DNA of 64,000 nt, taken from positions 7,528 through 71,527 of the forward strand of contig CAZKWY010000001.1 in assembly GCA_964556655.1 (NCBI GenBank), in the 5' to 3' direction. Below, piece by piece: positions 13,809 to 58,001 of this stretch. How positions within the stretch are numbered: position 1 is the stretch's first letter; each line of letters begins with the position of its first letter. The DNA comes from an uncultured Candidatus Saccharibacteria bacterium. GTDB lineage: Bacteria > Patescibacteriota > Minisyncoccia > Portnoybacterales > UBA2143. A program made the position numbers and the translations under genes. The notes under the pieces were generated by a model that searched no databases, was not told where the DNA came from, and saw nothing but the letters and a program-made list of their open reading frames with translations.

Positions 13809-13843
13809 ATATGCCCTAGGATGCATTGGCTTAGGCAAAAATG

Positions 13844-13914
13844 AGCGGGTAGGGGGAGTCGAACCCCCGTCATCAGGTTGGAAACCTGAGGTAATACCGT
13901 TATACAATACCCGC
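13844..13914 (-). tRNA. tRNA-Gly (anticodon TCC)
   Basis: Manual cloverleaf on the reverse strand: acceptor GCGGGTA/TACCCGC, anticodon stem TCAGG/CCTGA with loop TTTCCAA, T-arm GGGGG-TTCGACT-CCCCC, discriminator U (typical of tRNA-Gly). Confidence 0.75.
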
Positions 13915-13931
13915 TTATATTAAGATTGCTG

Positions 13932-14004
13932 TCGGGGATACCAGACTCGAACTGGTAACCTCCTGCTCCCAAAGCAGGCGCGCTAGCCATTGCGCCAATC
14001 CCCG
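13932..14004 (-). tRNA. tRNA-Pro (anticodon TGG)
   Basis: Manual cloverleaf on the reverse strand: acceptor CGGGGAT/ATCCCCG, D-arm GCGC-AATGGCTA-GCGC, anticodon stem CCTGC/GCAGG with loop TTTGGGA, T-arm ACCAG-TTCGAGT-CTGGT, discriminator A. Confidence 0.8.
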
Positions 14005-14125: not shown

Positions 14126-15115
14126 TTGATTATGATAAAAGAAATTTGCGAAAATATTAATTTCTTCAAACAATGCCGCAAATATAATATCGGACTCTGG
14201 CAGTGTCCGACTTTCCTTTTTCTTATCACTGGAATAGTGACTATCTCTGCTATCATCACGACCTACTTTATTGGGACAAAATACGCTAACCCGGAAATAG
14301 TTGTTTTAATTGTCATTGGCATGTCAATTATTCTTCTAGTGGTTAGTTATCTCATTATTCATGGCTTCGAAAGACTGGCTGAGGCCAACCGCATGAAGTC
14401 AGAGTTCGTCAGCGTCGCCTCCCACCAGCTAAGAACTCCTCTCACTTCTGTAAAATGGGCCCTTAACATCATCGACCAACGAAAAGACAAACACCATCTT
14501 GATGGCCAAGAAATAAGCTTTCTAAAAGACGTGGAAAAAGGCAACCAGCGCATGATTGATCTAGTCAATGATCTCTTAAACGTTTCCCGCATTGAGCAGG
14601 GAAGATTGTTTTTTAATCCTAAAAAAACTTCTTTTGTTAAAATAGTTCAACAAAAAGTAGATGAATATCGACCCATCGCTAAAGCTAAAAACATTAAATT
14701 AACCTTAAAGATAGAAGACCTCCAAGAAATCCCTTTGCTTTTTGTTGATCCGCAAAGCATTAAATTGGCCGTTAATAATCTTATTGACAATGCCGTTAAA
14801 TATAGCCGTGAAAAAGGAGAGATATTGGTTCGGCTAGAAAAAGACAAAAAATGTTTGAGATTTTCCGTTAGAGACCACGGAGTGGGCATCCCAAAAACAG
14901 AGCAAAAAAAGATTTTTGATAAATTCTTCCGCAGCCAAAATATTTTAAAATACCAGACTGAAGGCACGGGATTGGGGCTTTTTATCGCCAAGGCAGCCGT
15001 GGAAAGCTACGGCGGAAAAATGAATTTTAAAAGCCAGGAAGGCAAAGGATCGCTTTTCTGGTTTGCCGTACCAATTAAACAGCCTAATAAAGAGGCCGTA
15101 ACCGAGATAGAATAA
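14126..15115 (+). CDS. Membrane-bound sensor histidine kinase
   Basis: Two TM segments precede HisKA (SEFVSVASHQLRTPLTSVKWAL) and HATPase_c (DNAVKYS, RDHGVGIP, GTGLGLFIAKAAVESYGGKM). Confidence 0.85.
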   Translation: MIMIKEICENINFFKQCRKYNIGLWQCPTFLFLITGIVTISAIITTYFIGTKYANPEIVVLIVIGMSIILLVVSYLIIHGFERLAEANRMKSEFVSVASHQLRTPLTSVKWALNIIDQRKDKHHLDGQEISFLKDVEKGNQRMIDLVNDLLNVSRIEQGRLFFNPKKTSFVKIVQQKVDEYRPIAKAKNIKLTLKIEDLQEIPLLFVDPQSIKLAVNNLIDNAVKYSREKGEILVRLEKDKKCLRFSVRDHGVGIPKTEQKKIFDKFFRSQNILKYQTEGTGLGLFIAKAAVESYGGKMNFKSQEGKGSLFWFAVPIKQPNKEAVTEIE

Positions 15116-15155
15116 TGGCTATCTCCGGAAATGTCTCTTTCTAGCGTTTTGCTAT

Positions 15156-15530
15156 ATGAAAACAATATTGTTTATTGAAGACGAACCAACTCTACAAAAA
15201 ACAGCTGGACGTTTTTTAGAGGAAGAAGGATACGAAATAAGAAGCGCCCTTGACGGAGAGGCCGGTCTTGCTCTAGCTAAAAAAATAAAGCCGGACTTGA
15301 TCCTGCTAGATTTAATCCTACCAAAAAAAGACGGCTTTGAGGTACTTGAAGAACTCAAGACAGACTCCTCTACCAAAGAAATTCCTGTTATTGTCTTAAC
15401 TAACCTCGAAGGTAGCCACGATGTAGAAAGAGCTCTTTCTTTGGGCGCGACTACCTATTTAGTCAAGGCTAATTACAAATTGAACGAAATTTCAAAAAAG
15501 ATTAAAAAAGCCTTTGAAAGCAAGAAGTAA
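15156..15530 (+). CDS. Single-domain response regulator (CheY-like receiver)
   Basis: 124 aa. ILFIEDEP, the phospho-acceptor context PDLILLDLILP, and TNLEGSHDVERALSLGATTYLVK are receiver-domain motifs. Confidence 0.85.
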   Translation: MKTILFIEDEPTLQKTAGRFLEEEGYEIRSALDGEAGLALAKKIKPDLILLDLILPKKDGFEVLEELKTDSSTKEIPVIVLTNLEGSHDVERALSLGATTYLVKANYKLNEISKKIKKAFESKK

Positions 15531-15568
15531 AAACGCCTTACTAAATGTTTTTATTGCCGCTTTAATAT

Positions 15569-17320
15569 ATGAAGGTGGATAATTCCCAATTAAAAGCTTT
15601 CATTCTTGACGCAGAGCTAGTTAAAAAAGAAGACCTGGAAAAAGCTGATCAGAAAGCAAAAAAAGAGAAAAAAAGCCTGGGAGATATCTTAGTCCAACAA
15701 AAACTCCTTACTCAAGAACAGCTTATTAAGCTCAAAGCCTATATCCTAGGCATTCCTTTTGTAAACTTGGAAGAAGCCAATATCGACCAAGATGTTTTAA
15801 GAATTATCCCAGAACCGATTGCCAGGCGTCATAACATCATCGCTTTTCGTAAAAACGGACGCGATCTAGAAGTGGCGATGCTTGACCCCAGAGACCTTCA
15901 GACGATTGAGTTTATCAAAAAGAAGTCAAGCTTAGAAATTCTTCCCCGCCTAACTACCCCGGAAAGCATTAAAAATATCCTCAAGCAGTATCAAAAAAGT
16001 CTAGAAGCGGAATTTGGCGAGCTTATTAAACAAGAGTCTGAAATGGTCTCTCTCCCTGAAGAAGCCACCGAAAAAGAAAGCAAAGAAGACCTGGAAAAAG
16101 CAGCCGAACAAATGCCAATTATTAAAATTGTTGATACTCTTTTAAAGCATGCTATTCTCCAGCAGGCCTCGGACATTCACATTGAGCCAACAGAGAAAGA
16201 AGTTGTCGTCAGATATCGCATTGACGGCATTCTGCGCGATGCTATGACTCTGCCCAAAAAAGTTCATTCCGGCATTGTCGCGCGCATCAAAGTCCTTTCC
16301 AATTTAAAATTAGATGAACACCGCCTTCCCCAAGACGGAAGGTTTAAAATAGAAACGCCTGATTATAAAATCTCTTTCCGCGTTTCCATTCTGCCTGTCT
16401 ACGACGGAGAAAAAATAGTTATGAGGCTGCTTTCTGAAGACAATAAAGGCCTCACCTTAGAAACTCTCGGCTTGGCCGGCAAAGCGCTGGAAAAAGTCCA
16501 CCAAAACATCGCCCGTCCCAATGGCATGATTCTAGCAACCGGCCCAACAGGATCCGGAAAGACAACCACCCTCTACACTATTTTAGATATTCTCAATCAG
16601 CCAGAGGTTAACATCTCCACTGTTGAAGACCCCATTGAATACCGTATGCCACGCATCAATCAGACTCAAGTAAGACCGAAAATAGGGTTGACTTTTGCTA
16701 ATGGCCTGCGCGCTCTTGTCAGGCAAGACCCCGACATCATTATGGTAGGCGAGATTAGAGACAACGAAACAGCTGGCTTAGCTGTCAATGCCGCTTTAAC
16801 CGGTCATTTAGTTTTATCTACCCTCCATACCAACAGCGCTTCCGGCGCTTTTCCACGATTAATCGACATGAAAGCGGAGCCGTTTCTCATCACCTCTACT
16901 GTTAACGTGATCATCGCCCAAAGGCTGGTCAGAAAGCTTTGCTCAGAAACCAGAAAGGCTTATCATTTAAGCGAAAAAGACTTAAAGAATTTTTCTGAAC
17001 AAGTTGACTTAGAAAAACTATTAACTACTATGAAAAACGAAAAAATTGTCGGTCCCAAGGACACTTGGGAAACAATTAATTTTTTCCGGCCTCAAAAATC
17101 CGAAGACTGTCCTGACGGATACAAAGGACGCTTGGGTATTTATGAAGTGCTAGAAATAAGCGAAAAGATAAGAGAAATGATCGTTAAAGAAGCTAATACC
17201 GACCAGATAGAAAAGCAAGCGAAAGAAGATGGCATGCTCACTCTTATTGAAGACGGCATCATTAAAGCCGCCCAAGGGCTAACCAGCATTGAAGAAGTCC
17301 TGCGCGCTACCCAGGAATAA
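15569..17320 (+). CDS. pilB: Type IV pilus assembly ATPase PilB (GspE family)
   Basis: 583 aa. It has an N-terminal GspII_E_N-like domain, Walker A GPTGSGKTTTLY, aspartate and histidine boxes (DPIEYRMPRINQTQV, STLHTNSA), and Walker B in PDIIMVGEIRD. Confidence 0.9.
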   Translation: MKVDNSQLKAFILDAELVKKEDLEKADQKAKKEKKSLGDILVQQKLLTQEQLIKLKAYILGIPFVNLEEANIDQDVLRIIPEPIARRHNIIAFRKNGRDLEVAMLDPRDLQTIEFIKKKSSLEILPRLTTPESIKNILKQYQKSLEAEFGELIKQESEMVSLPEEATEKESKEDLEKAAEQMPIIKIVDTLLKHAILQQASDIHIEPTEKEVVVRYRIDGILRDAMTLPKKVHSGIVARIKVLSNLKLDEHRLPQDGRFKIETPDYKISFRVSILPVYDGEKIVMRLLSEDNKGLTLETLGLAGKALEKVHQNIARPNGMILATGPTGSGKTTTLYTILDILNQPEVNISTVEDPIEYRMPRINQTQVRPKIGLTFANGLRALVRQDPDIIMVGEIRDNETAGLAVNAALTGHLVLSTLHTNSASGAFPRLIDMKAEPFLITSTVNVIIAQRLVRKLCSETRKAYHLSEKDLKNFSEQVDLEKLLTTMKNEKIVGPKDTWETINFFRPQKSEDCPDGYKGRLGIYEVLEISEKIREMIVKEANTDQIEKQAKEDGMLTLIEDGIIKAAQGLTSIEEVLRATQE

Positions 17321-17347
17321 GCCCAACACAGGCGCATTTTTTAAACT

Positions 17348-18580
17348 ATGCCTAATTTTATCTATACCGCCAAAGACCAAACAGGAAGGGATATCGAAGG
17401 CCACAGCGAAGCCTCCAATATTCATGAATTGGCCAATATCCTCAGAAGAAAAAATCTTTCTCTTATCTCGGCTGATATAGCCGGAGAAGAAAGTGGCGGA
17501 TTACTGAAAAAAATCAAAATAATCTTTACCAAAACAGGCTTTGGCAAAGTTTCTTTGGTAGATAAAATGGTTTTTACTAGGCATCTTTCCGTTATGATTG
17601 AAGCTGGCCTATCTCTCAATCAATCCCTTCAAGCTCTTTCTAAACAAACTAAAAACCCGAAATTTAAAAGAATATTAAAAGACGTTGAGCAGAAAATTAA
17701 AAAGGGAGTTTCATTTAGCAACGCTTTAGGCCGGTATCCAAAAACGTTTCCTGATCTTTATGTTAATATGGTGCGGGTAGGAGAGTCTAGCGGCAATCTA
17801 GAAGAGGTGCTTAAAAAACTAGCCGAACAGATGAAGAAAAACCACGAACTGGTTAGCCGCGTCCGAGGAGCTATGATTTATCCATCTGTTATTGTGGCTA
17901 CTATGATTGGAATAGGTGTTTTTATGATGATTATGGTAGTGCCAAAACTAAGCCAAGTCTTTGCGGAACTAAAAATAGAGCTGCCTTTAAGCACGAGGGC
18001 CATTATTGCTATCAGTGAATTTCTTAAAAATAATTATCTGCTATCTCTTATCGGCTTAGCCTGCTTGGCAATCCTTTTAAAGATAGCTTTAGGCAATAGC
18101 GCCGTCAAAAAGGTTCTACAAAAAGCCTATCTCCGCATGCCTGTTTTCGGCCCTCTAATCAAAAAAGTAAACTCCGCCCGTTTTGCCCATACTTTTAGCT
18201 CTCTCATTGAAAGCGGAGTACCTATTGTTGAATCCCTTAAAATTACCGGCGGGACCCTAGGCAACATCAACTTCAAAAATTCGCTTTTAAAATCAGCCGA
18301 AAAAGTACAGGAAGGAAAACCGCTAAGCAAGGCGCTGGCCCGGCACACTCGGCTCTATCCTCCTATGATTATCCAAATGATAAGCGTAGGAGAAGAGACC
18401 GGCCGTCTTTCTGACACCCTTAAAACGCTGGCTGACTTCTATCAAGAAGAAATCGACAATACTACTAAAAATCTTTCTTCCGTTATTGAGCCAATTATTA
18501 TGGTTGTTATAGGCGCTGCGGTGGCCTTTTTTGCTATTTCTATGATCCAGCCAATGTATTCAATGATGGGAGAAATGTAA
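17348..18580 (+). CDS. pilC: Type IV pilus platform protein PilC (GspF family)
   Basis: 410 aa with duplicated T2SS_F domains (VFTRHLSVMIEAGLSLNQSL; NFKNSLLKSAEKVQEGKPLSKAL) and three TM segments. Confidence 0.85.
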   Translation: MPNFIYTAKDQTGRDIEGHSEASNIHELANILRRKNLSLISADIAGEESGGLLKKIKIIFTKTGFGKVSLVDKMVFTRHLSVMIEAGLSLNQSLQALSKQTKNPKFKRILKDVEQKIKKGVSFSNALGRYPKTFPDLYVNMVRVGESSGNLEEVLKKLAEQMKKNHELVSRVRGAMIYPSVIVATMIGIGVFMMIMVVPKLSQVFAELKIELPLSTRAIIAISEFLKNNYLLSLIGLACLAILLKIALGNSAVKKVLQKAYLRMPVFGPLIKKVNSARFAHTFSSLIESGVPIVESLKITGGTLGNINFKNSLLKSAEKVQEGKPLSKALARHTRLYPPMIIQMISVGEETGRLSDTLKTLADFYQEEIDNTTKNLSSVIEPIIMVVIGAAVAFFAISMIQPMYSMMGEM

Positions 18581-18581
18581 A

Positions 18582-19439
18582 ATGATAATTAAAAAAGACC
18601 AAGGTTTTACTGCTATTGAAATTCTGATCGTTATTTCTATCCTGATTATTCTGCTGGCTATCACTATAGGAAGCTACTTATTTTTTGAGAGAAGAAGCGA
18701 GCTTGATGATGCTACCCACCGTATTCTTGAAATTATCCGCTCGGCCCAAAATAAAACTCTTGCTTCAAAAGATGACACCCAATACGGAGTCTATTTTCAA
18801 AATGACCGCATAACCATTTTTAAAGGAGATTCTTATTCGGCTACTTCTACCGACAATGAAATATTTACCCTTCCAGACCGCTTAGAAATATACGATACCA
18901 GCCTGCGGGGCGGCGGCAATGAGCTAGTTTTTGAAAAGTTAAGCGGCCGCACCGAACAATATGGCAGCACAACTATTAGGATGATTGATCAGCCCTCTCA
19001 AGCAACCACTATTTTTATTGCTTCTTCCGGCCAGCTTAATACCAGCCAGCCTAGCGCTTGTTGCCAGAGCAATAGAATCACTGACACTAGACATCTTCAT
19101 TTTGATCTTGGCTGGAGCATCCAAAATTCTGCTACTACAACGCTTATTTTTTCCGACTCTCCGACAATAACTGAAACCATTAATATGGCTGACTATTTCG
19201 ATCCGACCAAGACAGAGTTTGACTGGAAGAAAACAATAGATGTCAATGGAGAAAATCAAACTTTGCGCATCCATACGCATTCTTTAGACGCTTTTAACAC
19301 TATTTTATGCGTCCATCGAGACCGCATGAGAAACGATAAACCTGTTCAAATAGAAATTGACGGCAAAAGCATTGTTTCTTATGACGCCGATGGAGCTATT
19401 TCTGTAGAAGCCTATGGCGGAACAGTGGAAAAACAATAA
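18582..19439 (+). CDS. Prepilin-type N-terminal cleavage/methylation domain protein (large pilin or pseudopilin)
   Basis: 285 aa. KDQG|FTAIEILIVISILIILLA is the class III signal, with G at -1, F at +1 and E at +5. Confidence 0.7.
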   Translation: MIIKKDQGFTAIEILIVISILIILLAITIGSYLFFERRSELDDATHRILEIIRSAQNKTLASKDDTQYGVYFQNDRITIFKGDSYSATSTDNEIFTLPDRLEIYDTSLRGGGNELVFEKLSGRTEQYGSTTIRMIDQPSQATTIFIASSGQLNTSQPSACCQSNRITDTRHLHFDLGWSIQNSATTTLIFSDSPTITETINMADYFDPTKTEFDWKKTIDVNGENQTLRIHTHSLDAFNTILCVHRDRMRNDKPVQIEIDGKSIVSYDADGAISVEAYGGTVEKQ

Positions 19440-19902
19440 ACAAAAAGGCATTGGCATGATAGAGGTAATGATTTCTCTAGCGATTATAGTCATCGTCTTT
19501 TTCTCTTTTATCCTGCTTATCAAAATTAATCTGCAAATCCAAAGAGAAAATCAAAACAGCCTGAAGGCCCTTAACCTTGCCACAGAGACAATGGAGGCAG
19601 TTAGAAGCTTTAAAGAAAATGACTGGAGCGCTTTTTCTTCACTGAGCACAGCTAGTCCCTATTATCCAGTTATCTCTGGAAACGAATGGACGCTTTCCGA
19701 GTCTGATCCGGGCGAAATTGACAGCTTCAGCCGATGGATTGAAATAGAAGAAGTTTACCGCGATGCTAACGACAATATCGCTGAAACAGGCAATCTTGAC
19801 AATAAAAGTCGCGAAATTAAAGCTTTTGTCCAATGGGAGGAACGGTCCAGAATAAAACAAATTACTCTTTCAAGCATTTTAACTAATTGGAAAAACCAAT
19901 AA
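19414..19902 (+). CDS. Minor pilin or pseudopilin with a prepilin-like N-terminus
   Basis: KQKG|IGMIEVMISLAIIVIVFF has G at -1, E at +5 and a hydrophobic helix. The start is ambiguous, and an alternative ATG lies at 19456. Confidence 0.5.
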   Translation: MAEQWKNNKQKGIGMIEVMISLAIIVIVFFSFILLIKINLQIQRENQNSLKALNLATETMEAVRSFKENDWSAFSSLSTASPYYPVISGNEWTLSESDPGEIDSFSRWIEIEEVYRDANDNIAETGNLDNKSREIKAFVQWEERSRIKQITLSSILTNWKNQ

Positions 19903-19906
19903 GCTT

Positions 19907-20440
19907 ATGCGCTTGCCCATCAAACAACAATCCGGCTTTACCCTGATTGAATTAGTTGTCTACGCGGCTGTTTTTATTCTTGTTATTATTCTGCTGACTT
20001 CCTTTGTTTTTGATTTGATTAAGGCGCAAAACAGGACTAGAATTAGCAAAGAACTGACTGAAAACAATAAAAGAGCGCTGGAAGCGATTGTTTACGAAAT
20101 AAAACACGCCCAAGAAATATATCTGCCTACCAGCAATTTGAGCGCAGACAAAGGACAATTAAGCCTAAAAACATCCCAAAACGCTCCTTCCGGGGAAGAA
20201 AATTCCTATATTGATATTTATTTAGACGACAACGACTGCTTATGTGTCAAAAGAGAAAGCAGCCAACCGGAAAGAATGATGTCTGAAGACATTAAAACAT
20301 CTCGTCTTTTTTTTAGCAGCTTAGGCACCAGCACTAGCCAAACCATTAGAATAAAACTAACCTCTTTTTACGATCATCCGCAGGCTAAATACCGCGCCAG
20401 CTCAACAATTATCACTTCAGCAGGATTAAGAAATGATTAA
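19907..20440 (+). CDS. Type IV pilin or pseudopilin
   Basis: 177 aa. KQQSG|FTLIELVVYAAVFILVIILL is a canonical prepilin signal. Confidence 0.75.
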   Translation: MRLPIKQQSGFTLIELVVYAAVFILVIILLTSFVFDLIKAQNRTRISKELTENNKRALEAIVYEIKHAQEIYLPTSNLSADKGQLSLKTSQNAPSGEENSYIDIYLDDNDCLCVKRESSQPERMMSEDIKTSRLFFSSLGTSTSQTIRIKLTSFYDHPQAKYRASSTIITSAGLRND

Positions 20441-21698
20441 ACACCAACAAAAAGGAGCCGCCCTTATTATAGGCATCATTATTATTATGTCTATTACTTT
20501 AATTATTGGCCTAAACCTAAGTTTTTTGGCTTTTAGCGCTATGGCTAATATGAAGAACAAAATTTATTCCGCCCAAAGCCTTTACGCCTCAGAAGCCGGC
20601 CTAGAAGACGCTCTCCTAAAATTATCTGACAGCTCTCTTTCTCTAACCAGCCCCTACAGCTTCTCCCTAGACAACCAAGCAGTGGAAGTTAATGTTTCAG
20701 AGTTAGTTGGCGGAGCAAGAACTATCACCTCTCTGGGAAACGCTGAAGAAAGAATCAAAAAATTAGCCGTCACTTATATGATTAAATCGGACGATGTCTC
20801 TTTTCACTACGGTGTTCAGATAGGAAAAGGAGGTATGATTATGGGCAACAACAGTCTAGTGGAAGGCAATGTTTTCTCCAACGGCAGCATTGTTCCGGCC
20901 GGAGGAGGCAACGGAGAGATTGACGGCACAGCTATTGTCGCCATTGACAACAACGTTCTTGATAGTATTGATGTGACCAACGGAGACGCTTACACCTACT
21001 CCTGCAAGGACTCCAATATTTCAGATACTCTTTATTATGTTTCCGGCGGTACTGTTGATAATTGCTCTTACGGCAGTTTGGTTATGCTAAATGAAGAGAT
21101 AGCCAGCGAGCCCCTGCCTATTTCCAATAACGATATTCAAGAATGGAAAACCGAAGCCGAAGCAGGCGGGACTATTACCGGAGACCATACTTACGATTCT
21201 CAAAACGCCTCTTTGGGGCCGGTAAAGATCACAGGCAACTTAACAATCACTAATAATTCTATCGTAAATATTACTGGCACCATCTATGTGCAAAAAGACC
21301 TAATTATTGACAACAACGCCATTGCAAAACTTGATTCAGAATATGGCTCTTTAAGCGGCATGGTTATCGCTGACGGGAAAATCTCTTTTAGAAACAACGG
21401 CATTGCTGCCGGATCAGGAGAAGAAGGAAGTTTTATTATGCTTCTTTCTACCAATGCTTCTCTTAACGCAAACAGCCCGGCCATAGATGTTACCAACAAC
21501 ACCGAAGGAGCTATTTTTTACACAAACACTGGTTTGATCCATCTGCATAATAATATTAATATTAAAGAAGCTACGGGCTACCAAGTTCAGCTAGACAACA
21601 ATGCTGAGGTTAATTACGAAACTGGCCTAGAAAACATCAGCTTTACTAGCGGGCCAGGAGGAAGCTGGGAAGCAGTTAATTGGCGAGAAATAAAATAA
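20433..21698 (+). CDS. PilX-N-like minor pilin with a repeat-rich (beta-helix-like) body, possibly tip or adhesin
   Basis: 421 aa. The N-terminus KGAALIIGIIIIMSITLIIGL resembles the PilX N-terminal domain. The body is N/T/G-rich with repeated motifs (NNSIVNITGTIYVQKDLIIDNNAIAKLD). Confidence 0.5.
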   Translation: MIKHQQKGAALIIGIIIIMSITLIIGLNLSFLAFSAMANMKNKIYSAQSLYASEAGLEDALLKLSDSSLSLTSPYSFSLDNQAVEVNVSELVGGARTITSLGNAEERIKKLAVTYMIKSDDVSFHYGVQIGKGGMIMGNNSLVEGNVFSNGSIVPAGGGNGEIDGTAIVAIDNNVLDSIDVTNGDAYTYSCKDSNISDTLYYVSGGTVDNCSYGSLVMLNEEIASEPLPISNNDIQEWKTEAEAGGTITGDHTYDSQNASLGPVKITGNLTITNNSIVNITGTIYVQKDLIIDNNAIAKLDSEYGSLSGMVIADGKISFRNNGIAAGSGEEGSFIMLLSTNASLNANSPAIDVTNNTEGAIFYTNTGLIHLHNNINIKEATGYQVQLDNNAEVNYETGLENISFTSGPGGSWEAVNWREIK

Positions 21699-23579
21699 AT
21701 GAACGTTTTATCTTCTCTCAACAGTAAACAAAAACAAGCAGTCACGGCTCTCAAAGGGCCTGTTTTGGTTATTGCCGGACCCGGAAGCGGGAAAACCAGA
21801 TGTCTAACCCATCGCATTGCCTATCTCGTTACTAAAAAGAAAATCCCCGCTTTTAATATTTTGGCCGTCACCTTTACTAACAAAGCAGCCCAGGAAATGA
21901 AGGAAAGATTAGCTAAAATTCTTCCACCTTCTTTTCAGAGAATGCCTGATATCGGAACTTTTCACGCTATTTGCCTGCGGATTCTTAGGCAGGATATTGA
22001 CAAACTCCCCCAAACCTCTTTAGGCAGAAATTTTGTCATTTACGACGAAGCTGACCGATTATCCTTAATCAAAAAAATTATTAACGACTTAGCTGTTAAC
22101 ACCGACCAATTCAAGCCTTCTACTCTGCAAAACACTATTTCTAGAGCAAAAGACGAATTAATTGACCCCGGATCATACCAGGAACAAGCTAAAGAATATT
22201 TTCCTAAAACAGTCGCCCAAGTTTATCAAGCCTATCAAGAGGCTCTAGCTCAAGCCAATGCCCTTGATTTTGACGATCTTATTATGCTAACCGTTAAGCT
22301 TTTCCAAACACGGCCCGATGTCTTAAAAAAATATCAAAACAGATGGCGCTATTTTTTGGTAGATGAAGCCCACGATACCAATTTAAGCCAATACAAACTG
22401 ACCAACCTTTTGGCGCGAAAGCGCCAAAACTTGTGGCTGATTGCTGATCCAGACCAGTCTATCTATATGTGGCGAGGCGCCGACTTTAGAAATATTCTTA
22501 ATTTTGAAAAAGATTATCCTAAGGCTCGCGTTATCCTTTTAGAAGAGAACTACCGCTCTACTAAAAATATCTTGGAGGCTGGCCATTGCGTTATTAATAA
22601 AAACACCCAACGCCGAGAAAAAAATCTTTGGACAAAAAATGGACAAGGCGCGCCCATTAATTTAATTCTAGCGTCAAACGAAAGAGCGGAAGGCGATTTT
22701 ATTGTCAACGAAATTGAGGGATTAATTAACGAAAAAGGATATACTCTAAAAGACTTTACCGTTCTTTACCGCACCAATGCCCAATCCAGAGCCATTGAAG
22801 AAGCCTTCCTGCAAGCCGGCTTCCCCTATAGAATTATTGGCACAGTCAAATTCTACGAAAGAAAAGAAATTAAAGATATTTTATGCTACCTCCGACTAAC
22901 AGCCAACCCTCAAGACCTCGTCAGTCTGCAAAGAGTAGTCAATCTCCCCCCGCGCCGCCTTGCTAGATACAGCAAAGATCCGTCTTTGGTCTTAAGAAAA
23001 AACGACAAAGCCCTAGAGAGTTTCAATCAGATAATGAACTCTTTTAGAATTTTCAGCCGGCAAAATTCCTTAACTGCTCTTATTAAAAAAATAATTGAAG
23101 AAATCGGCTATGAGAAATACATTAAATCCTTTGCCTCTGACGCAGAAGAAGGGGAGAGAAGATGGGAGAATGTAGAAGAAATTTTTACCGTGGCTAGCCG
23201 CTATGACAAAGAAGATCCAGGCACAGGATTAGAAAAATTCCTTGAAGAAATCAGTCTTTTGACAGGCCAAGACGAGATTGAAACCAACAGCGAAGTTATT
23301 AACTTAATGACTCTTCACTGCGCTAAAGGATTAGAATTTCCTGTTGTCTTTATCGCCGGATGCGAGGAAAGCATCCTGCCTCATTCCAGAAGCCAGCTTC
23401 ACCGGGACCAGATGGAAGAAGAAAGACGCCTATGCTATGTCGGCATTACCCGGGCTAAAGAAATTAGCTATCTTACTTTCACTAATCAACGCCGCCTGTG
23501 GGGACAAACAATGGCTAATTATCCTTCCCGCTTCCTTTCCGACTTGCCCGAACACCTCATCGCCTTCCGCCAATTCTAG
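21699..23579 (+). CDS. UvrD/PcrA/Rep-family ATP-dependent DNA helicase
   Basis: 626 aa. Motif I AGPGSGKT, Ia TFTNKAAQEM, II FLVDEAHDTN, III DPDQSIYMWRGAD, V LEENYRST, and VI TLHCAKGLEFPVVFI are all present. Confidence 0.85.
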   Translation: MNVLSSLNSKQKQAVTALKGPVLVIAGPGSGKTRCLTHRIAYLVTKKKIPAFNILAVTFTNKAAQEMKERLAKILPPSFQRMPDIGTFHAICLRILRQDIDKLPQTSLGRNFVIYDEADRLSLIKKIINDLAVNTDQFKPSTLQNTISRAKDELIDPGSYQEQAKEYFPKTVAQVYQAYQEALAQANALDFDDLIMLTVKLFQTRPDVLKKYQNRWRYFLVDEAHDTNLSQYKLTNLLARKRQNLWLIADPDQSIYMWRGADFRNILNFEKDYPKARVILLEENYRSTKNILEAGHCVINKNTQRREKNLWTKNGQGAPINLILASNERAEGDFIVNEIEGLINEKGYTLKDFTVLYRTNAQSRAIEEAFLQAGFPYRIIGTVKFYERKEIKDILCYLRLTANPQDLVSLQRVVNLPPRRLARYSKDPSLVLRKNDKALESFNQIMNSFRIFSRQNSLTALIKKIIEEIGYEKYIKSFASDAEEGERRWENVEEIFTVASRYDKEDPGTGLEKFLEEISLLTGQDEIETNSEVINLMTLHCAKGLEFPVVFIAGCEESILPHSRSQLHRDQMEEERRLCYVGITRAKEISYLTFTNQRRLWGQTMANYPSRFLSDLPEHLIAFRQF

Positions 23580-23647
23580 GACTGTAATTCTAGGACAGTC
23601 CTTTTTTGACAGTCCTTCAAGGACTGTAATTCTAGGACAGTCCTTGG
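23578..23647. repeat. Palindromic repeat element, copy C (about 1.7 units, inverted relative to copy B)
   Basis: AGGACTGTAATTCTAGGACAGTCCTTTTTTGACAGTCCTTCA plus a partial second unit. It begins at the helicase stop codon and ends 3 nt before the rsmA ATG. Confidence 0.8.
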
Positions 23648-23649: not shown

Positions 23650-24519
23650 ATGAACCTTACTTCGCCCAAAATATTAAGGGAAACATTTAAAAAACACGAC
23701 TTTAAACCCCAAAAAAGACTGGGGCAAAATTTTTTAATTGACCAAAATATTGTTAATAAAATTGTCAAAATAGCTCAAATAAGTAAGAAAGACACTATTT
23801 TAGAAATCGGTCCCGGCACAGGCGCTATTACTAAAGCACTAGCGCAAAAGAGCAAAAAAGTAATTGCCGTAGAAAAAGACCCTCAACTATCAAAGATCCT
23901 AAAAGAAAACCTTTCTTCTTTTAAAAACACATCCATTATTACCTCCGACATCCGCAGGACTGTAATTCTAGGACAGTCCTTTTTTGACAGTCCTTCAAGG
24001 ACTGTAATTCTAGGACAGTCCTTGAAGGACTGTCCTTGGAAGGTGGTGGCTAATTTGCCTTATTATCTTAGCCAGCATGTTATTAGAAAGCTTTTAGAAT
24101 TAGAAAATCAGCCGGAAAAAATAGTTCTTCTAGTTCAAAAAGAACTTGCCCAAAGGATTTGCGCCAAGCCCCCGCGAATGAACATTCTAGCTGTTTCAGT
24201 CCAGTTTTACAGCCAGCCCGAAATTAAAGGATATGTTTCCAAAACTTGTTTTTGGCCTCAGCCAAAAGTAGATTCTGCCATTATTGAAATAAATCCCCTT
24301 GAAAAAACACAAGAGATATCCTCGGAGAGATTTTTTAAAACAGTTAAGGCCGGATTTTTTGCCCCCCGCAAACAGCTAGCCAATAATTTAACCAGTCAAC
24401 TAAAAAAAGGAAGGGAAGGAATAATAAAAGCGATCAAAAAGACGGGGATAGAAGAAAAGGCCAGAGCAGAAAACTTAACCATTAAAGAATGGATTAATTT
24501 AAGCCGTTTATTAACATAA
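23650..24519 (+). CDS. rsmA: 16S rRNA (adenine1518/1519-N6)-dimethyltransferase RsmA/KsgA, carrying an in-frame 28-codon repeat-element insertion
   Basis: The SAM motif ILEIGPGTGAITKAL and motif IV VVANLPYYLS are present. The insert [30 protein letters not shown] (nt 23956-24039) is encoded by the palindromic element and sits just before motif IV. The track's longer ORF (from 23344) overlaps the helicase in another frame. Confidence 0.8.
   Translation: MNLTSPKILRETFKKHDFKPQKRLGQNFLIDQNIVNKIVKIAQISKKDTILEIGPGTGAITKALAQKSKKVIAVEKDPQLSKILKENLSSFKNTSIITSDIRRTVILGQSFFDSPSRTVILGQSLKDCPWKVVANLPYYLSQHVIRKLLELENQPEKIVLLVQKELAQRICAKPPRMNILAVSVQFYSQPEIKGYVSKTCFWPQPKVDSAIIEINPLEKTQEISSERFFKTVKAGFFAPRKQLANNLTSQLKKGREGIIKAIKKTGIEEKARAENLTIKEWINLSRLLT
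23956..24039. repeat. Palindromic repeat element, copy D (84 bp), inside the rsmA coding sequence
   Basis: It is near-identical to copy C plus a GAAGGACTGTCCTTGG extension. The length is a multiple of 3 and the reading frame is preserved across it. Confidence 0.8.
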
Positions 24520-25239: not shown

Positions 25240-26046
25240 ATGATGAAAAAAAAGCAATCTTCTATTAAAAAGAAAATTTTCGGAGGCTTTTTTATCTTTT
25301 CAGCGGCAATGGTAGGATGGTTTTTAATCAAAGACGATCCCGCTAAAAATAGCCCTAAAAATAACGGACCAGAAAGATTCAGCGGAGAAAAGCAAAGCAT
25401 CCAAGATCTTCCCGGCGGAAAAGACTCTGACAATGATGGGCTTACCGACAGAGAAGAGAAGGCTTACGGCACGGATCCATATAATCCTGACTCCGACCAA
25501 GACGGATATTTAGACGGAGAAGAAATCGCCGCTGGATACGATCCGCTAGTTCCTTCTCCTGGGGATAAAATCACCAATTTGGAAAATTTCTTGGCTAAAA
25601 TTAATCCCAGCCTAGACATTCAGATGCCGGATGAAAAAGATCTTAATATTTCTCTAGAAACAGGGCCAGAAGCATTAGAAAAATATTTTCAAGAAGCGCA
25701 AACTCCGTCTGAATTAAAAAACCCTGATTTATATAAAGAAGCCTTTCTGGAAGCCAGGCTGGGCAAAAGCGAAAAGATTAACCAGATTATCGCTAATCTT
25801 AAACAAAGCCGCCAGCGCCTTCGACAGATAACCGTCCCCATAGAAGCGCTCCAAGTCCATAAGCTAACTTTAGCTTTAATGACTCCCTTAATCCAACTTT
25901 TTGAAGACCTTAAATCGGCCCAAGACAGCCCCCTTAAAACATTAGTCTCTATCAAGGGTTCTCAAGAATTAGTCCCTTATACCGTAGCCCTCCAAGCACA
26001 GACAAATAATTTGGCGAAAAAATACGACATTACTATTCCTCAATAA
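25240..26046 (+). CDS. Membrane-anchored protein with thrombospondin-type-3-like Ca-binding Asp repeats
   Basis: 268 aa. An N-terminal TM segment is followed by DSDNDGLTDREE and DPYNPDSDQDGYLDGEE repeats. A TGgTATAAT extended -10 lies upstream. Confidence 0.45.
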   Translation: MMKKKQSSIKKKIFGGFFIFSAAMVGWFLIKDDPAKNSPKNNGPERFSGEKQSIQDLPGGKDSDNDGLTDREEKAYGTDPYNPDSDQDGYLDGEEIAAGYDPLVPSPGDKITNLENFLAKINPSLDIQMPDEKDLNISLETGPEALEKYFQEAQTPSELKNPDLYKEAFLEARLGKSEKINQIIANLKQSRQRLRQITVPIEALQVHKLTLALMTPLIQLFEDLKSAQDSPLKTLVSIKGSQELVPYTVALQAQTNNLAKKYDITIPQ

Positions 26047-31055: not shown

Positions 31056-31058
31056 ATT

Positions 31059-55994: not shown

Positions 55995-56318
55995 AATGGA
56001 GAAATAAAACTCCATTATTTTTAATCTTTGACAAACTGCAGGCAATAGGGCTTTTTATTTTATGAGACAGCCCGATGGGATTTCCTCTTAGTTTTCGGAT
56101 ATCCTGGCGCCTTCCACTTACTTGCTAAGAGGCATGATGATAAAACATCAAACGGTGAAAACCGCTTTTCTGTTGGCAAGTAAGTGGGAGGACAAGCTGG
56201 GTTATTCCTCGGAGCAATCTTTCTTTCTGTCCTCAGGCAGAGAGTCTTTGCCTGCAGCTTGGCAAAGATTAATTCATACGTCCCTCTTTAATATTTAAAG
56301 AGGGGTTATTTTTTCAGC
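55995..56318 (+). ncRNA. Candidate structured RNA (~300 nt) in the ruvB-pilB2 intergenic region
   Basis: A plus-strand promoter-like TTGACA-17-TATTAT lies at 55962-55990. An 18-bp stem CCUUCCACUUACUUGC/GCAAGUAAGUGGGAGG has a U-G pair that is valid only on the plus strand, and there are nested small hairpins. An intrinsic terminator CCCTCTTTAA-TATT-TAAAGAGGG followed by TTATTTTTT lies at 56282-56314. Confidence 0.3.
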
Positions 56319-58001
56319 GGCTATTTGATAAGAGCCAACCTCTCTTTCTATTTCTTCTAAGCTGGTGATGCCTTCGCTAGCCTTAAGAAGGGCGTCTTGA
56401 ATCATGAGGATCATTCCTTCTCGACGGGCCGTCCCTTGGATTTGGGAGGCAGAGGCTTTATCAATGATTAACTGTCCAATTTTGTGGCTTACTGCTAAAA
56501 ACTCAAAAACGCCAACTCTTCCTTGGTAGCCAAGGCCGTGGCAAGAAGAACAGCCTTGCGGTTGATAGAATTGTCTAGAAGGAGGGATTTTTATGCCGGC
56601 TGAAGAGGGTATGCAAGAAATAACTTTTTCAATAGCCTCCAGGCCTTTTGGCGAAGGCTGGTGTTTCTTTTTGCACTCAGGGCAGAGCTTTCTGACAAGT
56701 CTTTGGGCGATAATAAGGGTAAGCGCTGAAGCTAAAGAATCAGGCCTCGCTCCCATGCCTGTTAAACGAGGGATGGCGCCAGCCGCTTCATTAGTGTGAA
56801 GGGTGGAAAAAACAATATGGCCGGTCAGAGAAAACTGAATGGCGATGTCGGCGCTTTCTTGGTCTCTAATTTCTCCTACCATAAGAATATCCGGGTCCTG
56901 TCTGACAATAGCTCTTAGGGATTGGGCAAAAGTATGGCCGCGACGCTGGCTGATTTGGGTTTGAGTAATGCCTTCCAGTTGATATTCAATAGGATTTTCT
57001 ACAGTGATAATTTTGTTTCCTGGCTGGTTGACGTAATTTAGAAAAGAATAGAGGGTAGTTGTTTTCCCGGAGCCTGTAGGGCCGGTAGAAAGAATCATTC
57101 CATTGGGTTGGCCAATTTGCTTTTCTACCAAGGGGAGAAGCTCTTTTTTAATGCCAAGGTCGCGCAAAGAGGGTTTTACTTGTCCTATTCCCAAAAGACG
57201 CATGACAATTGTTTCTCCGTGGTTACTGGGCAAAAGAGAGACTCTTACATCTATTTCTTGCTTGATTCTGCTTGATGATTTGATGTGAATAGAAAAACGT
57301 CCGTCTTGGCTGATGTCACGGACGTTTAAAAGCATATCGGAAAGCGTTTTAATTCTGGAAAGAATAAAAAGATAATCTTTATTAGGCATATCGGCCGCTT
57401 TTTGAAGGATCCCATCAACGCGATAGCGTAATCTTGTCTTGTTTTTTTCCGGCTCTAAATGAATATCCGAAGCTTTCATCTTGAGGGCGCCTGCGATAAT
57501 AGCCGAAAGAAGTTTTGTCGTAGAAAGATGGCGGATAGTTTTTTCTAATTCTTGGATAGTAGCCAGAGATTTTTCAAGCTGGGACAATTCTTCTTTGGGG
57601 ATATTAAAAACGCCGCGGAGGGGCGCTTTTTTAGATAGAGAAGCGCTAGACTGGTAAGCAGGCCATCTTTTTTTAAGGCCGCTTAAGGAAACGACAAAAA
57701 TTTGGCACTGGAAGCCTTTGGCTTGAAGATGTTCAATAATTTTTTGGGCTTTTTTATTTTGGGGATCTGCGGCAGCAATTATTATTTTGGGGCCGCTTTT
57801 ATCAATAACAAGAACTTTTGCTTGTTTTGCTTGCTCTTCAGGAATAGTGGCCATGTCCTCCGCGTCTATTGGGGCAAGAGACAAATCAAGATAGGGCAAA
57901 TCTAATTTTTGGGCTAGCTGTTTGGCCCTGGTCTCTTCTTCTTGTTTTTTGATTTGAGCCAGTTTTTCCTCTAGTTGTTTTTTGCTCTTGAGCTCGGACA
58001 T
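56295..58001 (-). CDS. Second GspE/PilB-family secretion ATPase with a tetracysteine zinc motif
   Basis: 568 aa. It has an N-terminal T2SSE_N-like domain, Walker A GPTGSGKTTTLYSFL, Walker B in PDILMVGEIRD, and CPECKK...CSSCHG cysteines typical of PilB rather than PilT. Confidence 0.8.
   Translation of the reverse strand: MSELKSKKQLEEKLAQIKKQEEETRAKQLAQKLDLPYLDLSLAPIDAEDMATIPEEQAKQAKVLVIDKSGPKIIIAAADPQNKKAQKIIEHLQAKGFQCQIFVVSLSGLKKRWPAYQSSASLSKKAPLRGVFNIPKEELSQLEKSLATIQELEKTIRHLSTTKLLSAIIAGALKMKASDIHLEPEKNKTRLRYRVDGILQKAADMPNKDYLFILSRIKTLSDMLLNVRDISQDGRFSIHIKSSSRIKQEIDVRVSLLPSNHGETIVMRLLGIGQVKPSLRDLGIKKELLPLVEKQIGQPNGMILSTGPTGSGKTTTLYSFLNYVNQPGNKIITVENPIEYQLEGITQTQISQRRGHTFAQSLRAIVRQDPDILMVGEIRDQESADIAIQFSLTGHIVFSTLHTNEAAGAIPRLTGMGARPDSLASALTLIIAQRLVRKLCPECKKKHQPSPKGLEAIEKVISCIPSSAGIKIPPSRQFYQPQGCSSCHGLGYQGRVGVFEFLAVSHKIGQLIIDKASASQIQGTARREGMILMIQDALLKASEGITSLEEIEREVGSYQIAAEKITPL

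What the first reader, a model, noticed from the sequence alone, without database searches (positions are those of the whole stretch)
14126..21698. A T4P locus headed by its own two-component pair and lacking secretin or alignment genes, plus a second distant PilB-like ATPase and O-antigen-ligase-family genes nearby
The HK, single-domain RR, PilB, PilC and four consecutive prepilin-like genes (285, 162, 177 and 421 aa; the last has a PilX-N-like helix and a long N/T/G-rich repeat body, possibly a tip adhesin) sit together. PilM/N/O/P/Q and PilT are absent from the window. A second GspE/PilB-type ATPase with the tetracysteine motif lies at 56295-58001. Two Wzy_C/O-antigen-ligase-family proteins and a Wzx flippase (36309-40213) lie nearby; this family includes pilin O-oligosaccharyltransferases (PglL/PilO), so they may glycosylate pilins rather than build O-antigen. 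That assignment is inference.
Basis: partly seen in the sequence, partly recalled or inferred. Interest (0 to 1): 0.5.

Follow-up and report, generated by a model that had tools for sequence, protein, structure and literature searches.

The report
Kinase-regulated pilus operon in Patescibacteria
An ultra-small (Patescibacteria) bacterium carries a type IV pilus operon led by its own minimal sensor kinase and CheY-like regulator; this layout recurs across the related genomes sampled, but here the usual pilMNO genes are missing and the last pilin looks like a pilus-tip receptor.

Summary
Window 14126-21698 holds HK, a receiver-only RR, PilB, PilC and four prepilin-like genes.

- **Organism.** It is a Parcubacteria/Paceibacteria-type Patescibacterium, so the missing secretin is expected.
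- **Two-component pair.** Among 80 related genomes, the RR sits directly upstream of pilB in 75/76 loci and the HK upstream of it in 61/63. Flanking genes are not conserved.
- **Kinase and regulator.** The HK has two membrane helices, a ~7-residue outer loop and no sensor domain. The RR has no output domain, so it probably acts by protein contact, most plausibly on the motor (inferred).
- **Pilins.** They follow the GspH-I-J-K (FimU-PilVWX) minor-pilin order. No major pilin, PilD or PilT is in the window.
- **Tip pilin.** The 421-aa model combines a GspK-like domain with an ice-binding-type beta-solenoid. This is the architecture of Thermus ComZ, a tip DNA receptor.
- **Alignment genes.** In 45/49 relatives pilM follows the pilins (pilN and pilO confirmed in two loci). 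It is missing only here and in the four nearest relatives, where uvrD follows.
- **Second PilB.** It is a conserved orphan beside ruvB and keeps the tetracysteine motif that PilB1 lacks.
- **Wzy_C/Wzx genes.** They belong to a conserved rnpA-yidC-jag block at oriC. Pilin glycosylation has no support.

The parts
14126..15115 (+). Histidine kinase. The likely start is the ATG at 14132. It has a short cytoplasmic N-terminus with a conserved C15...W23-x-C25-P26 motif, two membrane helices with a ~7-residue outer loop, then HisKA and HATPase_c. There is no sensor domain.
   Evidence: Pfam; translation; conservation across 71 orthologues; directly upstream of the RR in 61/63 relatives.
15156..15530 (+). 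Stand-alone receiver (CheY-like response regulator, 124 aa). It has E8/D9, D52, T82, Y101 and K104 and no output domain.
   Evidence: Pfam (Response_reg 4-116 only); sequence; 51-77% identical in relatives and directly upstream of pilB in 75/76 loci.
15569..17320 (+). PilB-type extension ATPase (PilB1). It has an MshEN-like N-terminal domain and a T2SSE core, and lacks the full tetracysteine motif.
   Evidence: (TIGR02538 574 bits, below the 675 cutoff); 0/80 orthologues have CxxC...CxxC.
17348..18580 (+). PilC/GspF platform protein.
   Evidence: Pfam T2SSF x2; NCBIfam GspF/PilC models below cutoff.
18582..19439 (+). Prepilin, GspH/FimU/ComGD-like minor pilin (285 aa; KDQG|FTAIE).
   Evidence: N_methyl; weak GspH, ComGD and PpdA matches; orthologues in the same position.
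19414..19902 (+). Prepilin, PilV/GspI/ComGE-like minor pilin (162 aa; KQKG|IGMIE).
   Evidence: N_methyl; weak PilV and ComGE matches.
19907..20440 (+). Prepilin, PilW/GspJ/ComGF-like minor pilin (177 aa; QQSG|FTLIE).
   Evidence: N_methyl; weak HpsC and ComGF matches.
20433..21698 (+). GspK/PilX-type tip pilin with an ice-binding-type beta-solenoid, the ComZ-like architecture (421 aa; G-1 present, no E+5).
56295..58001 (-). Orphan second PilB/GspE-type ATPase (PilB2) with CPEC...CSSC, co-directional with ruvB. Its link to the locus above is unproven.
   Evidence: solitary, with conserved TsaE | PilB2-RuvB synteny in three relatives.

Best explanation
This is the motor-plus-priming-complex operon of a Paceibacteria-type (Patescibacteria) type IV pilus, with a dedicated minimal phosphorelay built into it.

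**Shown**
- The gene order is HK, stand-alone receiver, PilB, PilC, then four prepilins in GspH-I-J-K order.
- This order is the norm across the 80 related genomes sampled.

**Inferred mechanism**
- The kinase has two membrane helices and almost no external loop. It would therefore sense something in or at the membrane, such as envelope or contact stress or the membrane pool of pilins, as PilS does in Pseudomonas.
- It would phosphorylate the CheY-like receiver. That protein has no DNA-binding or enzymatic output, so it would act by binding a partner.
- The most likely partner is the PilB motor encoded immediately downstream, or else PilC. Binding would switch pilus extension on or off.
- The four pilins would form the tip or priming complex. 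The 421-aa GspK-like subunit would cap the fibre and present its beta-solenoid as the receptor, for a host surface or for DNA as in Thermus ComZ.

**Missing parts**
- The major pilin, prepilin peptidase and PilT are not in the window and must act in trans. Relative L044 has them in a second cluster.
- In this sublineage the pilMNO block that normally ends the operon has been lost or moved. The locus is left ComG-like in composition.
For: **Identity of the parts.**

**Organism.** All 80 PilB1 relatives are Patescibacteria/Parcubacteria MAGs.

**Conserved linkage.**
- The RR lies directly upstream of pilB in 75/76 loci. The median gap is about 12 bp and several overlap.
- The HK lies upstream of the RR in 61/63 loci.
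- Flanking genes are not conserved: hits in 3 of 80 loci for YmdB, 4 for UvrD and 24 for RNase Y (not corrected for flank length). This argues for selection on the linkage.

**Regulator and kinase.**
- The RR is the best conserved small protein of the operon, at 51-77% identity against 35-55% for the HK.
- The RR keeps all phospho-acceptor and switch residues.
- The HK keeps its H box and its N, G1, F and G2 ATP-binding-domain boxes.

**A second case.** Another stand-alone receiver sits between PilB' and PilT in the second pilus cluster of L044.

**Pilins.**
- A prepilin cassette follows PilC in relatives, in several size variants.
- The P421 model matches GspK, an IBP-type solenoid and ComZ.
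- The ComZ paper describes exactly that two-fold combination, a tip location and DNA binding (PMC6561018).

**Precedents.** Receivers that act on or with PilB are known. Examples are PilG/PilH (review PMC11656802) and, from their titles in the search list, the cyanobacterial PATAN-CheY regulators and Xanthomonas DrdR.
Against: - No direct evidence shows that the RR binds PilB. A Rosetta-stone search for RR-PilB fusions was uninformative.
- Adjacency could reflect co-expression only.
- ComZ similarity is at fold level only. The family profile finds nothing in PDB by sequence, and the Foldseek TM-score is low because the domains are arranged differently.
- The C-terminal strand of the model has low confidence.
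- Without PilMNO, PilD, PilT and a major pilin in view, function in this genome cannot be demonstrated.
- Promoter and terminator scans did not define the transcription unit.
Confidence: 0.6

Rival explanations
1. The kinase-receiver pair is only a neighbour or an indirect regulator. The receiver would be a phosphate sink, or would signal to an unlinked partner such as a transcription factor or cell-envelope machinery. Its position ahead of pilB would reflect co-transcription, not control of the motor.
For: Single-domain receivers often have distant targets. NCBIfam finds similarity only to generic receivers such as PleD-N, PhoB-N, DivK-like and EpsW. No fusion or interaction evidence was obtained.
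Against: The arrangement persists in 75/76 and 61/63 loci while surrounding synteny decays. Gaps to pilB are very short or overlapping. A further receiver is embedded between PilB' and PilT in L044.
Confidence: 0.25
2. In this sublineage the locus builds a short ComG-like competence pseudopilus for DNA uptake, not a long adhesive or twitching pilus. It would comprise an ATPase, a platform protein and four minor pilins, with no PilMNO or PilT in the locus. The ComZ-like tip would be the DNA receptor. This overlaps with the best explanation.
For: The gene composition and order parallel comGA-GB-(GC)-GD-GE-GF-GG, with weak ComGD, ComGE and ComGF matches. pilMNO is absent here although present in 45/49 relatives. 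The tip pilin has a ComZ-like architecture. Saccharibacteria, another Patescibacteria lineage, are naturally competent and lack complete nucleotide synthesis (PMC11623550).
Confidence: 0.3
3. The locus is decaying in this sublineage. Loss of pilMNO disabled the machine, and the remaining genes are relics.
For: pilM (with pilN and pilO where checked) directly follows the last pilin in 24/26 comparable relatives. It is replaced by uvrD only in the window and its nearest relatives.
Against: All eight reading frames are intact with their catalytic and signal motifs. The same pilMNO-less arrangement is kept in L001 and L006 at 42-77% protein identity (HK, RR and PilB 51-77%; PilC and the four pilins 42-61%), which indicates continued selection. 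ComG-type systems work without PilMNO (established knowledge).
Confidence: 0.1
4. One reading: the two Wzy_C proteins and the Wzx flippase at 36309-40213 glycosylate the pilins, like PglL or TfpO, rather than building a surface polymer.
For: Both proteins carry Wzy_C. The organism belongs to a group that lacks LPS (established knowledge), so a classical WaaL role is unlikely. Pilin O-glycosylation has been predicted for Saccharibacteria pilins (PMC11623550).
Against: The genes lie about 15 kb away on the other strand, in a conserved rnpA-yidC-jag-Wzx-WzyC-WzyC block at oriC. No homologue lies within 10 kb of any of the 80 pilus loci. Pfam finds no PglL-type accessory domain. NCBIfam gives only weak IctB and RfaL hits. 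The only solved structural match is WaaL 7tpg, TM 0.60.
Confidence: 0.15

Closest known systems
Saccharibacteria (TM7x / Nanosynbacter) type IV pili T4P-1 and T4P-2 (PMC11623550)
   Same: These are Patescibacteria pili without a secretin. Their genes are spread over several loci, they have several PilB paralogues, and the K- or X-type minor pilin carries an extra domain and a non-canonical signal and is proposed as the adhesin.
   Different: No two-component genes are reported in those loci: no occurrence of 'response regulator', 'histidine kinase' or 'two-component' in the paper. Their loci include PilM/N/O, and the PilX2 adhesin domain is a beta-propeller, not a beta-solenoid.
Thermus thermophilus competence pilin locus pilA1-pilA2-pilA3-comZ and ComZ (PDB 6qvi; PMC6561018)
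   Same: Minor pilins are followed by a GspK-like pilin that carries an ice-binding-type triangular beta-solenoid. The P421 model hits ComZ, GspK and IBPs, just as ComZ itself does.
   Different: There is no detectable sequence similarity. P421 is smaller (421 aa, against 518 residues in the 6qvi chain). The host is a diderm with a secretin. DNA binding by P421 is untested.
GspH-I-J-K / FimU-PilV-PilW-PilX minor (pseudo)pilin priming complexes
   Different: NCBIfam matches are all far below the family cutoffs. The H-type subunit is unusually large at 285 aa, and up to about 460 aa in relatives. No PilY1 was found.
Pil-Chp system (PilG/PilH) and cyanobacterial PATAN-CheY regulators acting on PilB
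   Same: CheY-like receivers control the localisation or activity of the type IV pilus extension motor (PMC11656802; search list).
   Different: Those receivers are fed by CheA-type kinases with MCP and CheW partners. Here the kinase is a classical HisKA kinase with two membrane helices, encoded in the pilus operon itself.
PilS-PilR two-component system of Pseudomonas
   Same: A pilus-dedicated two-component pair. PilS senses pilin within the membrane (established knowledge), which is a plausible analogy for a kinase with no external domain.
   Different: PilR is a sigma-54 activator with a DNA-binding domain, whereas this RR is receiver-only. PilS has six membrane helices (established knowledge), whereas this HK has two.
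ComG competence pilus operon of Firmicutes
   Same: ATPase, platform protein and then minor pilins GD-GE-GF-GG in the same order. There is no PilMNO, PilT or secretin in the operon.
   Different: ComGA is short and lacks the MshEN domain. The ComGA model scores 253 against a cutoff of 300. The ComGC major pilin is absent. Relatives of this locus carry PilMNO.

Membership tests
Type IV pilus (T4aP-like) machinery | PilB/GspE-type hexameric ATPase with T2SSE core | tested here: met
   PF00437 at 428 bits and MshEN at 61 bits. TIGR02538 scores 574 bits, below the equivalog cutoff of 675.
Type IV pilus (T4aP-like) machinery | PilC/GspF platform with two T2SSF repeats | tested here: met
   PF00482 in two stretches, 233 bits.
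Type IV pilus (T4aP-like) machinery | Prepilins with class III signal (G-1, hydrophobic +1, E+5) | tested here: met
   Three of the four genes are canonical and pass N_methyl. The fourth has G-1 without E+5, as GspK/PilX do.
Type IV pilus (T4aP-like) machinery | Major pilin and prepilin peptidase PilD | tested here: not met
   Neither is in the 64-kb window. Both are present in a second cluster of relative L044. The rest of the genome could not be read.
Type IV pilus (T4aP-like) machinery | PilM/PilN/PilO alignment complex | tested here: not met
   Absent from the window. A PilM homologue is present downstream of the pilins in 45/49 relatives, with PilN and PilO confirmed by Pfam in two.
Type IV pilus (T4aP-like) machinery | PilT retraction ATPase | tested here: not met
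   The window holds only the two long PilB-type ATPases. A 355-aa PilT-like gene exists in L044.
GspH-I-J-K / FimU-PilVWX minor pilin set | Four adjacent pilin genes in H-I-J-K order, with the K subunit lacking E+5 and having the GspK fold | tested here: met
ComZ-like tip competence pilin | GspK-like pilin domain combined with an IBP-type beta-solenoid | tested here: met
ComZ-like tip competence pilin | Sequence homology to ComZ | tested here: not met
   The profile of 50 family members finds no ComZ match in PDB sequences even at E up to 10.
ComZ-like tip competence pilin | DNA binding and tip location | not testable with these tools
   This needs EMSA, protection assays and cryo-ET or immunolabelling.
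PilS-PilR | RR with sigma-54 AAA+ and DNA-binding output; multi-pass (six-helix) HK | tested here: not met
   The RR is 124 aa and receiver-only. The HK has two membrane helices read from the translation.
Pil-Chp chemosensory system | CheA-type kinase (ChpA), MCP (PilJ) and CheW (PilI) feeding single-domain receivers | tested here: not met
   The receiver is single-domain, which fits, but the kinase is HisKA-type. No CheA, MCP or CheW was found in the window.
ComG competence pilus | ComGA equivalog and ComGC major pilin in the operon | tested here: not met
   The ComGA model scores 253 against a cutoff of 300 and covers only residues 190-455. There is no fifth pilin gene.
PglL/TfpO pilin O-oligosaccharyltransferase | Wzy_C core | tested here: met
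   PF04932 scores 90 and 67 bits.
PglL/TfpO pilin O-oligosaccharyltransferase | PglL-type accessory domains or family-specific model; linkage to a pilin gene (TfpO) | tested here: not met
   Pfam finds only Wzy_C. NCBIfam gives only weak IctB and RfaL hits, or none. The genes sit in the rnpA-yidC-jag block, and none lies near the 80 pilus loci.
WaaL O-antigen ligase | WaaL fold | tested here: met
   AF2 model pLDDT 80.5. Its only significant PDB match is 7tpg WaaL, with TM 0.60 and 14% identity.
WaaL O-antigen ligase | Lipid A-core acceptor pathway in the genome | not testable with these tools
   Only 64 kb is available, and no lpx or waa genes were seen in it. That Patescibacteria lack LPS is established knowledge, not tested here.

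The most novel reading that the evidence does not exclude
A dedicated two-gene phosphorelay, conserved at least across the sampled Paceibacteria-type genomes, gates the type IV pilus motor of these episymbiont-type bacteria. An intramembrane kinase with a conserved juxtamembrane Cys-x9-Cys-Pro motif would read host contact or the membrane pilin or redox state. A CheY-like protein would then bind PilB directly. In this sublineage the machine would run without PilMNO and carry a ComZ-like DNA or host receptor at its tip. That would be a minimal, signal-controlled pilus for DNA scavenging or host capture.
Probability: 0.2. Interest if true: 0.7.

Novelty: new variant of a known kind. Interest (0 to 1): 0.5.

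Why it matters
Type IV pili are central to how Patescibacteria find and hold hosts and probably take up DNA. Nothing appears to be known about how these reduced cells control their pili.

- **A testable handle on regulation.** A kinase and CheY-like pair is hard-wired ahead of pilB in nearly all of the 80 related genomes sampled. Phosphotransfer, RR-PilB binding and ATPase modulation can all be tested in vitro, without cultivating the organism.
- **A candidate receptor.** The ComZ-like tip pilin is a concrete candidate for the DNA or host receptor.
- **A natural experiment.** The sublineage-specific loss of pilMNO shows how far a monoderm-type pilus machine can be pared down.
- **A guide for annotation.** The two PilB paralogue types differ in the Zn-finger motif and in genomic context, which helps tell them apart.

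Tried and rejected
- **Exact-sequence look-ups.** PilB1 and PilB2 are not on record. A left-end gene gave only a 1.4-kb contig. The rest of the source genome, a 93,973-bp NCBI contig, could therefore not be searched for pilM, pilT, pilD or a major pilin.
- **Metagenome scan with PilB2.** The patterns matched, but no relative was confirmed. Context was obtained through homologues instead.
- **Rosetta-stone test for RR-PilB fusions.** The ranking in the 1.84-billion-protein representative library was swamped by multi-receiver hybrid proteins. Only one orthologue cluster (P0464, 72% identity, 128 aa) was visible, so the test was uninformative.
- **PDB sequence searches.** Both Wzy_C proteins and the P421 family profile returned no meaningful match (one chance hit at E = 1.1 for the P421 profile).
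- **Promoter and terminator scans.** Terminator-like sites occur at chance level and no unit boundaries emerged.
- **Rfam.** Only the six tRNAs were found.
- **c-di-GMP control of PilB1 via MshEN, considered and rejected.** The MshE-type motif model scores 26 against a cutoff of 38. By eye, the motif's key Arg and Gly appear to be replaced (the motif was recalled from memory).
- **A type II secretion pseudopilus, considered and rejected.** There is no secretin or GspC, GspL or GspM, and the organism is monoderm-type.
- **PilB' of L044 as the PilB2 orthologue, considered and rejected.** It is 42% identical to PilB1 and 37% to PilB2, so it is a third paralogue.

Full report
**1. What is in the window.**

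The 64-kb window comes from a Patescibacteria (Parcubacteria/Paceibacteria-type) genome.
- It spans the replication origin, with rnpA-yidC-jag on one side and dnaA-dnaN on the other. The GC-skew minimum lies at about 42-44 kb.
- All 80 closest PilB loci in species-representative genomes are Patescibacteria MAGs. Where named, they are Nealson-, Portnoy-, Wildermuth-, Giovannoni-, Specht-, Terry-, Niyogi- and Azambacteria.
- An identical copy of the 421-aa protein is recorded on a 93,973-bp NCBI contig and in run SRR7048225.

**2.

Eight plus-strand genes lie between tRNA-Pro/Gly (13843-14004, minus strand) and uvrD (21699), with gaps of -26 to +40 bp.

| Gene | Coordinates | Main evidence |
|---|---|---|
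| HK | 14126-15115 (likely ATG at 14132) | HisKA + HATPase_c |
| RR | 15156-15530 (124 aa) | Response_reg only |
| PilB1 | 15569-17320 | MshEN + T2SSE |
| PilC | 17348-18580 | T2SSF x2 |
| Pilin, 285 aa | 18582-19439 | KDQG\|FTAIE |
| Pilin, 162 aa | 19414-19902 | KQKG\|IGMIE |
| Pilin, 177 aa | 19907-20440 | QQSG\|FTLIE |
| Pilin, 421 aa | 20433-21698 | HQQKG\|AALII, G-1 but no E+5 |

These assignments rest.
- The first three pilins pass Pfam N_methyl.
- A motif scan of every ORF of 60 aa or more found no other class III signal in the window.
- Domain scans of the other plausible ORFs found no PilM, PilN, PilO, PilT, PilD or secretin.
- tblastn with a relative's PilM, PilO, PilT, PilD and major pilin found no PilM, PilO, PilD or major-pilin match; the PilT query hit only the two PilB-type genes.

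**3. The two-component pair is an integral, conserved part of the operon.**

I called ORFs in the 80 related loci and compared them with the window proteins.
- A receiver orthologue lies directly upstream of pilB in 75 of 76 loci that have at least 600 bp of upstream DNA. The median gap is about 12 bp and several overlap.
- The kinase lies directly upstream of the receiver in 61 of 63 loci with at least 1.7 kb upstream.
- The neighbourhood outside the operon is not conserved. Hits were found in 3 of 80 loci for YmdB, 4 for UvrD, 3 for KsgA and 24 for RNase Y, the last at variable distance. These counts are not corrected for how much flank each locus has.
- The linkage is therefore more than inherited synteny.
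- The receiver is 51-77% identical across these lineages, against 35-55% for the kinase.
- At 50% clustering only one orthologue cluster was visible among the top hits (P0464, 72% identity).

The receiver keeps E8/D9, D52, T82, Y101 and K104. It has no output domain.

The kinase has intact H, N, G1, F and G2 boxes.
- It has two membrane helices separated by about seven residues (KYANPE).
- It has no PAS, HAMP or extracytoplasmic domain.
- A near-invariant N-terminal motif, C15...W23-x-C25-P26...F30, sits just before the first helix.

I found no description of this arrangement in the searchable literature.
- The detailed Saccharibacteria T4P paper does not mention two-component genes.
- A 2024 review of PilB cofactors does not mention Patescibacteria.
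- Other searches found nothing relevant.
- This is absence of evidence in an incomplete library, not proof of novelty.

**4. The pilins are a minor-pilin set, and the last one is ComZ-like.**

NCBIfam gives weak matches, all below the family cutoffs.

| Pilin | Weak matches |
|---|---|
| 285 aa | GspH, ComGD, PpdA |
| 162 aa | PilV, ComGE |
| 177 aa | HpsC, ComGF |
| 421 aa | none |

This is the canonical H-I-J-K (FimU-PilV-PilW-PilX; ComGD-GE-GF-GG) order, with the E5-less subunit last.

The 421-aa family has 713 homologues at E below 1e-5. Where named they are Patescibacteria, and many are annotated PilX_N.

An AlphaFold2 model built on 50 homologues has mean pLDDT 84.
- Residues 4-65 form a long N-terminal helix.
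- Residues 75-122 form a small beta-sheet.
- Residues 128-400 form a beta-solenoid, mostly at pLDDT above 90.

Structural searches gave the following.
- Foldseek's best PDB hit is Thermus ComZ (6qvi, E 4e-5, probability 0.99), but the TM-score is low.

The ComZ paper reports the same pair of relatives for ComZ: GspK for the pilin domain and FfIBP for the solenoid. It argues that ComZ must sit at the tip, and it shows DNA binding (PMC6561018).

The resemblance is architectural only. The family profile finds no ComZ match by sequence.

Across relatives, PilC is followed by a prepilin cassette wherever pilins were detected; two loci (L008, L021) have pilM directly after pilC.
- The cassette comes in at least three size classes.
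- K-type subunits range from about 400 to 980 aa.
- This variability fits a surface-exposed receptor.

**5. What is missing, and why.**

The missing secretin is expected for this envelope type (established knowledge).

The missing alignment genes are more informative.
- A PilM homologue lies downstream of the pilin cassette on the same strand in 45 of 49 relatives that have at least 6 kb after pilC.
- It starts within 300 bp of the P421 orthologue in 24 of 26 loci.
- Pfam confirms PilM-PilN-PilO plus one small unknown gene in L047 and L039.
- The only exceptions are L001, L003, L004 and L006. These are the four relatives with downstream sequence whose PilB is closest to the window's (73-75% identity).
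- In those four, as in the window, uvrD follows the pilins.
- The window therefore belongs to a sublineage in which pilMNO was lost from, or moved out of, the operon.

Relative L044 shows where the other missing parts can reside. Next to its HK-RR-RR-PilB1 lies a second cluster:
- PilM, a PilN-like gene and PilO;
- a third paralogue PilB';
- another stand-alone receiver;
- a 355-aa PilT and a second PilC';
- a typical 183-aa major pilin (RNG|FTLIELLVV) and PilD.

I could not read beyond the window to test this for the present genome.

**6. The second ATPase.**

PilB2 (56295-58001, minus strand) is 39% identical to PilB1.
- Both score best on the PilB model and below its cutoff.
- PilB2 keeps CPEC...CSSC.
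- None of 80 PilB1 orthologues has a complete tetracysteine motif.
- PilB2 orthologues (56-63% identity) are solitary in three relatives. The conserved order is TsaE (divergent) | PilB2, RuvB, then downstream an LTD/PKD protein, YebC and RuvC where the locus extends that far, with IMPDH inserted after RuvB in two of them.
- No platform or pilin partner is nearby. A link to recombination or DNA uptake is only a suggestion from the ruv neighbourhood.

**7. The Wzy_C and Wzx genes.**

Two Wzy_C proteins, only 24% identical to each other, and a MOP-family flippase are present.
- In two relatives the same trio directly follows rnpA-yidC-jag at the origin, with one small extra ORF after jag in L086. 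In L085 it faces the same T4SS-like cluster; the L086 contig ends too soon to show this.
- No homologue occurs within 10 kb of any of the 80 pilus loci.
- Pfam shows only Wzy_C.
- NCBIfam gives weak IctB and RfaL hits for one protein and none for the other.
- PDB sequence searches find nothing.
- A model with pLDDT 80.5 matches only WaaL 7tpg, at TM 0.60.
- The PDB search returned no PglL or TfpO structure, so the PglL-versus-WaaL question cannot be settled.
- The context points to a housekeeping envelope function. Pilin glycosylation has no positive support.

**8. Mechanism and confidence.**

| Claim | Confidence |
|---|---|
| A T4P motor/platform/minor-pilin operon of a Patescibacterium | about 0.95 |
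| The kinase-receiver pair is functionally tied to it | about 0.8 |
| The receiver acts directly on PilB or another machine component | about 0.45 |
| P421 is the tip subunit | about 0.7 |
| P421 ligand is a host surface | about 0.4 |
| P421 ligand is DNA | about 0.3 |

- The operon identity is shown directly.
- The functional tie rests on conserved linkage.
- Direct action on the motor is inferred from the lack of an output domain, the tight coupling to pilB and precedents in other phyla.
- The tip location is inferred from the GspK-like, E5-less, bulky solenoid.

**9. Novelty.**

Type IV pili in Patescibacteria, minor-pilin tips, and receivers that influence PilB are all known. Three things appear new:
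- a minimal HisKA kinase plus CheY-like pair built into the pilB operon and conserved across the sampled Paceibacteria-type genomes;
- a ComZ-type solenoid tip pilin in this group;
- a sublineage that has dropped pilMNO.

I rate it a new variant of a known kind, with interest 0.5.

Noticed in passing
window 23578-23646 and 23956-24024: Two 100%-identical copies of a 69-nt element made of AGGACTGTCCT-type palindromes. One lies at the start of ksgA. The other lies inside the ksgA reading frame, in frame (23 codons; the peptide [23 protein letters not shown] appears twice). It looks like a REP- or MITE-like insertion tolerated within an rRNA methyltransferase gene.
   Followed up: partly
window 25240-36349: A T4SS-like cluster. 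It includes a TSP3-repeat protein, several unknown proteins, a VirB4/TraG-P-loop ATPase at 31715-33526 and a weak T4SS_pilin match at 34640-35251. The equivalent cluster in relative L085 has TrbL, PrgI and TraC-like genes and is convergent with the Wzy_C genes.
   Followed up: partly
P0122-P0240: Many Patescibacteria proteins of about 965-990 aa outscore the true PilB2 orthologues. Their length and scores suggest a doubled GspE/PilB-type ATPase, possibly a tandem-motor variant.
   Followed up: no
window 45960-58001 (- strand); L082-L084: Conserved block: PilB2, RuvB, an LTD/PKD surface protein, YebC, RuvC, 7TM_transglut, two ATP-grasp proteins and PBP1. An orphan pilus-type ATPase is persistently next to Holliday-junction genes.
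   Followed up: partly
window 61632-63807; L082 3508-5450: A second kinase (PAS + HisKA + HATPase, 531 aa) preceded by a 199-aa unknown protein. In relative L082 a PAS kinase with two stand-alone receivers lies in the same neighbourhood, beyond the 5'-3' exonuclease gene. These small genomes seem to favour receiver-only regulators.
   Followed up: no
L044 12701-21264: Relative L044 has a second pilus cluster fused to the first: PilM, a PilN-like gene, PilO, an unknown gene, a third PilB paralogue, a stand-alone receiver, PilT, PilC', a major pilin and PilD. It is a further case of a receiver embedded between pilus motors.
   Followed up: yes
window 14132-14215 (HK residues 1-27): A near-invariant C15...W23-x-C25-P26 motif lies on the cytoplasmic side just before the first membrane helix of the kinase, across 71 orthologues. 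It may be a redox or metal-sensing element or a protein-docking element.
   Followed up: partly
L031, L033, L037, L073: Some relatives carry a second HK-RR pair directly after pilB, or inserted between pilB and pilC on the opposite strand in L073. This suggests repeated recruitment of two-component genes to this operon.
   Followed up: no
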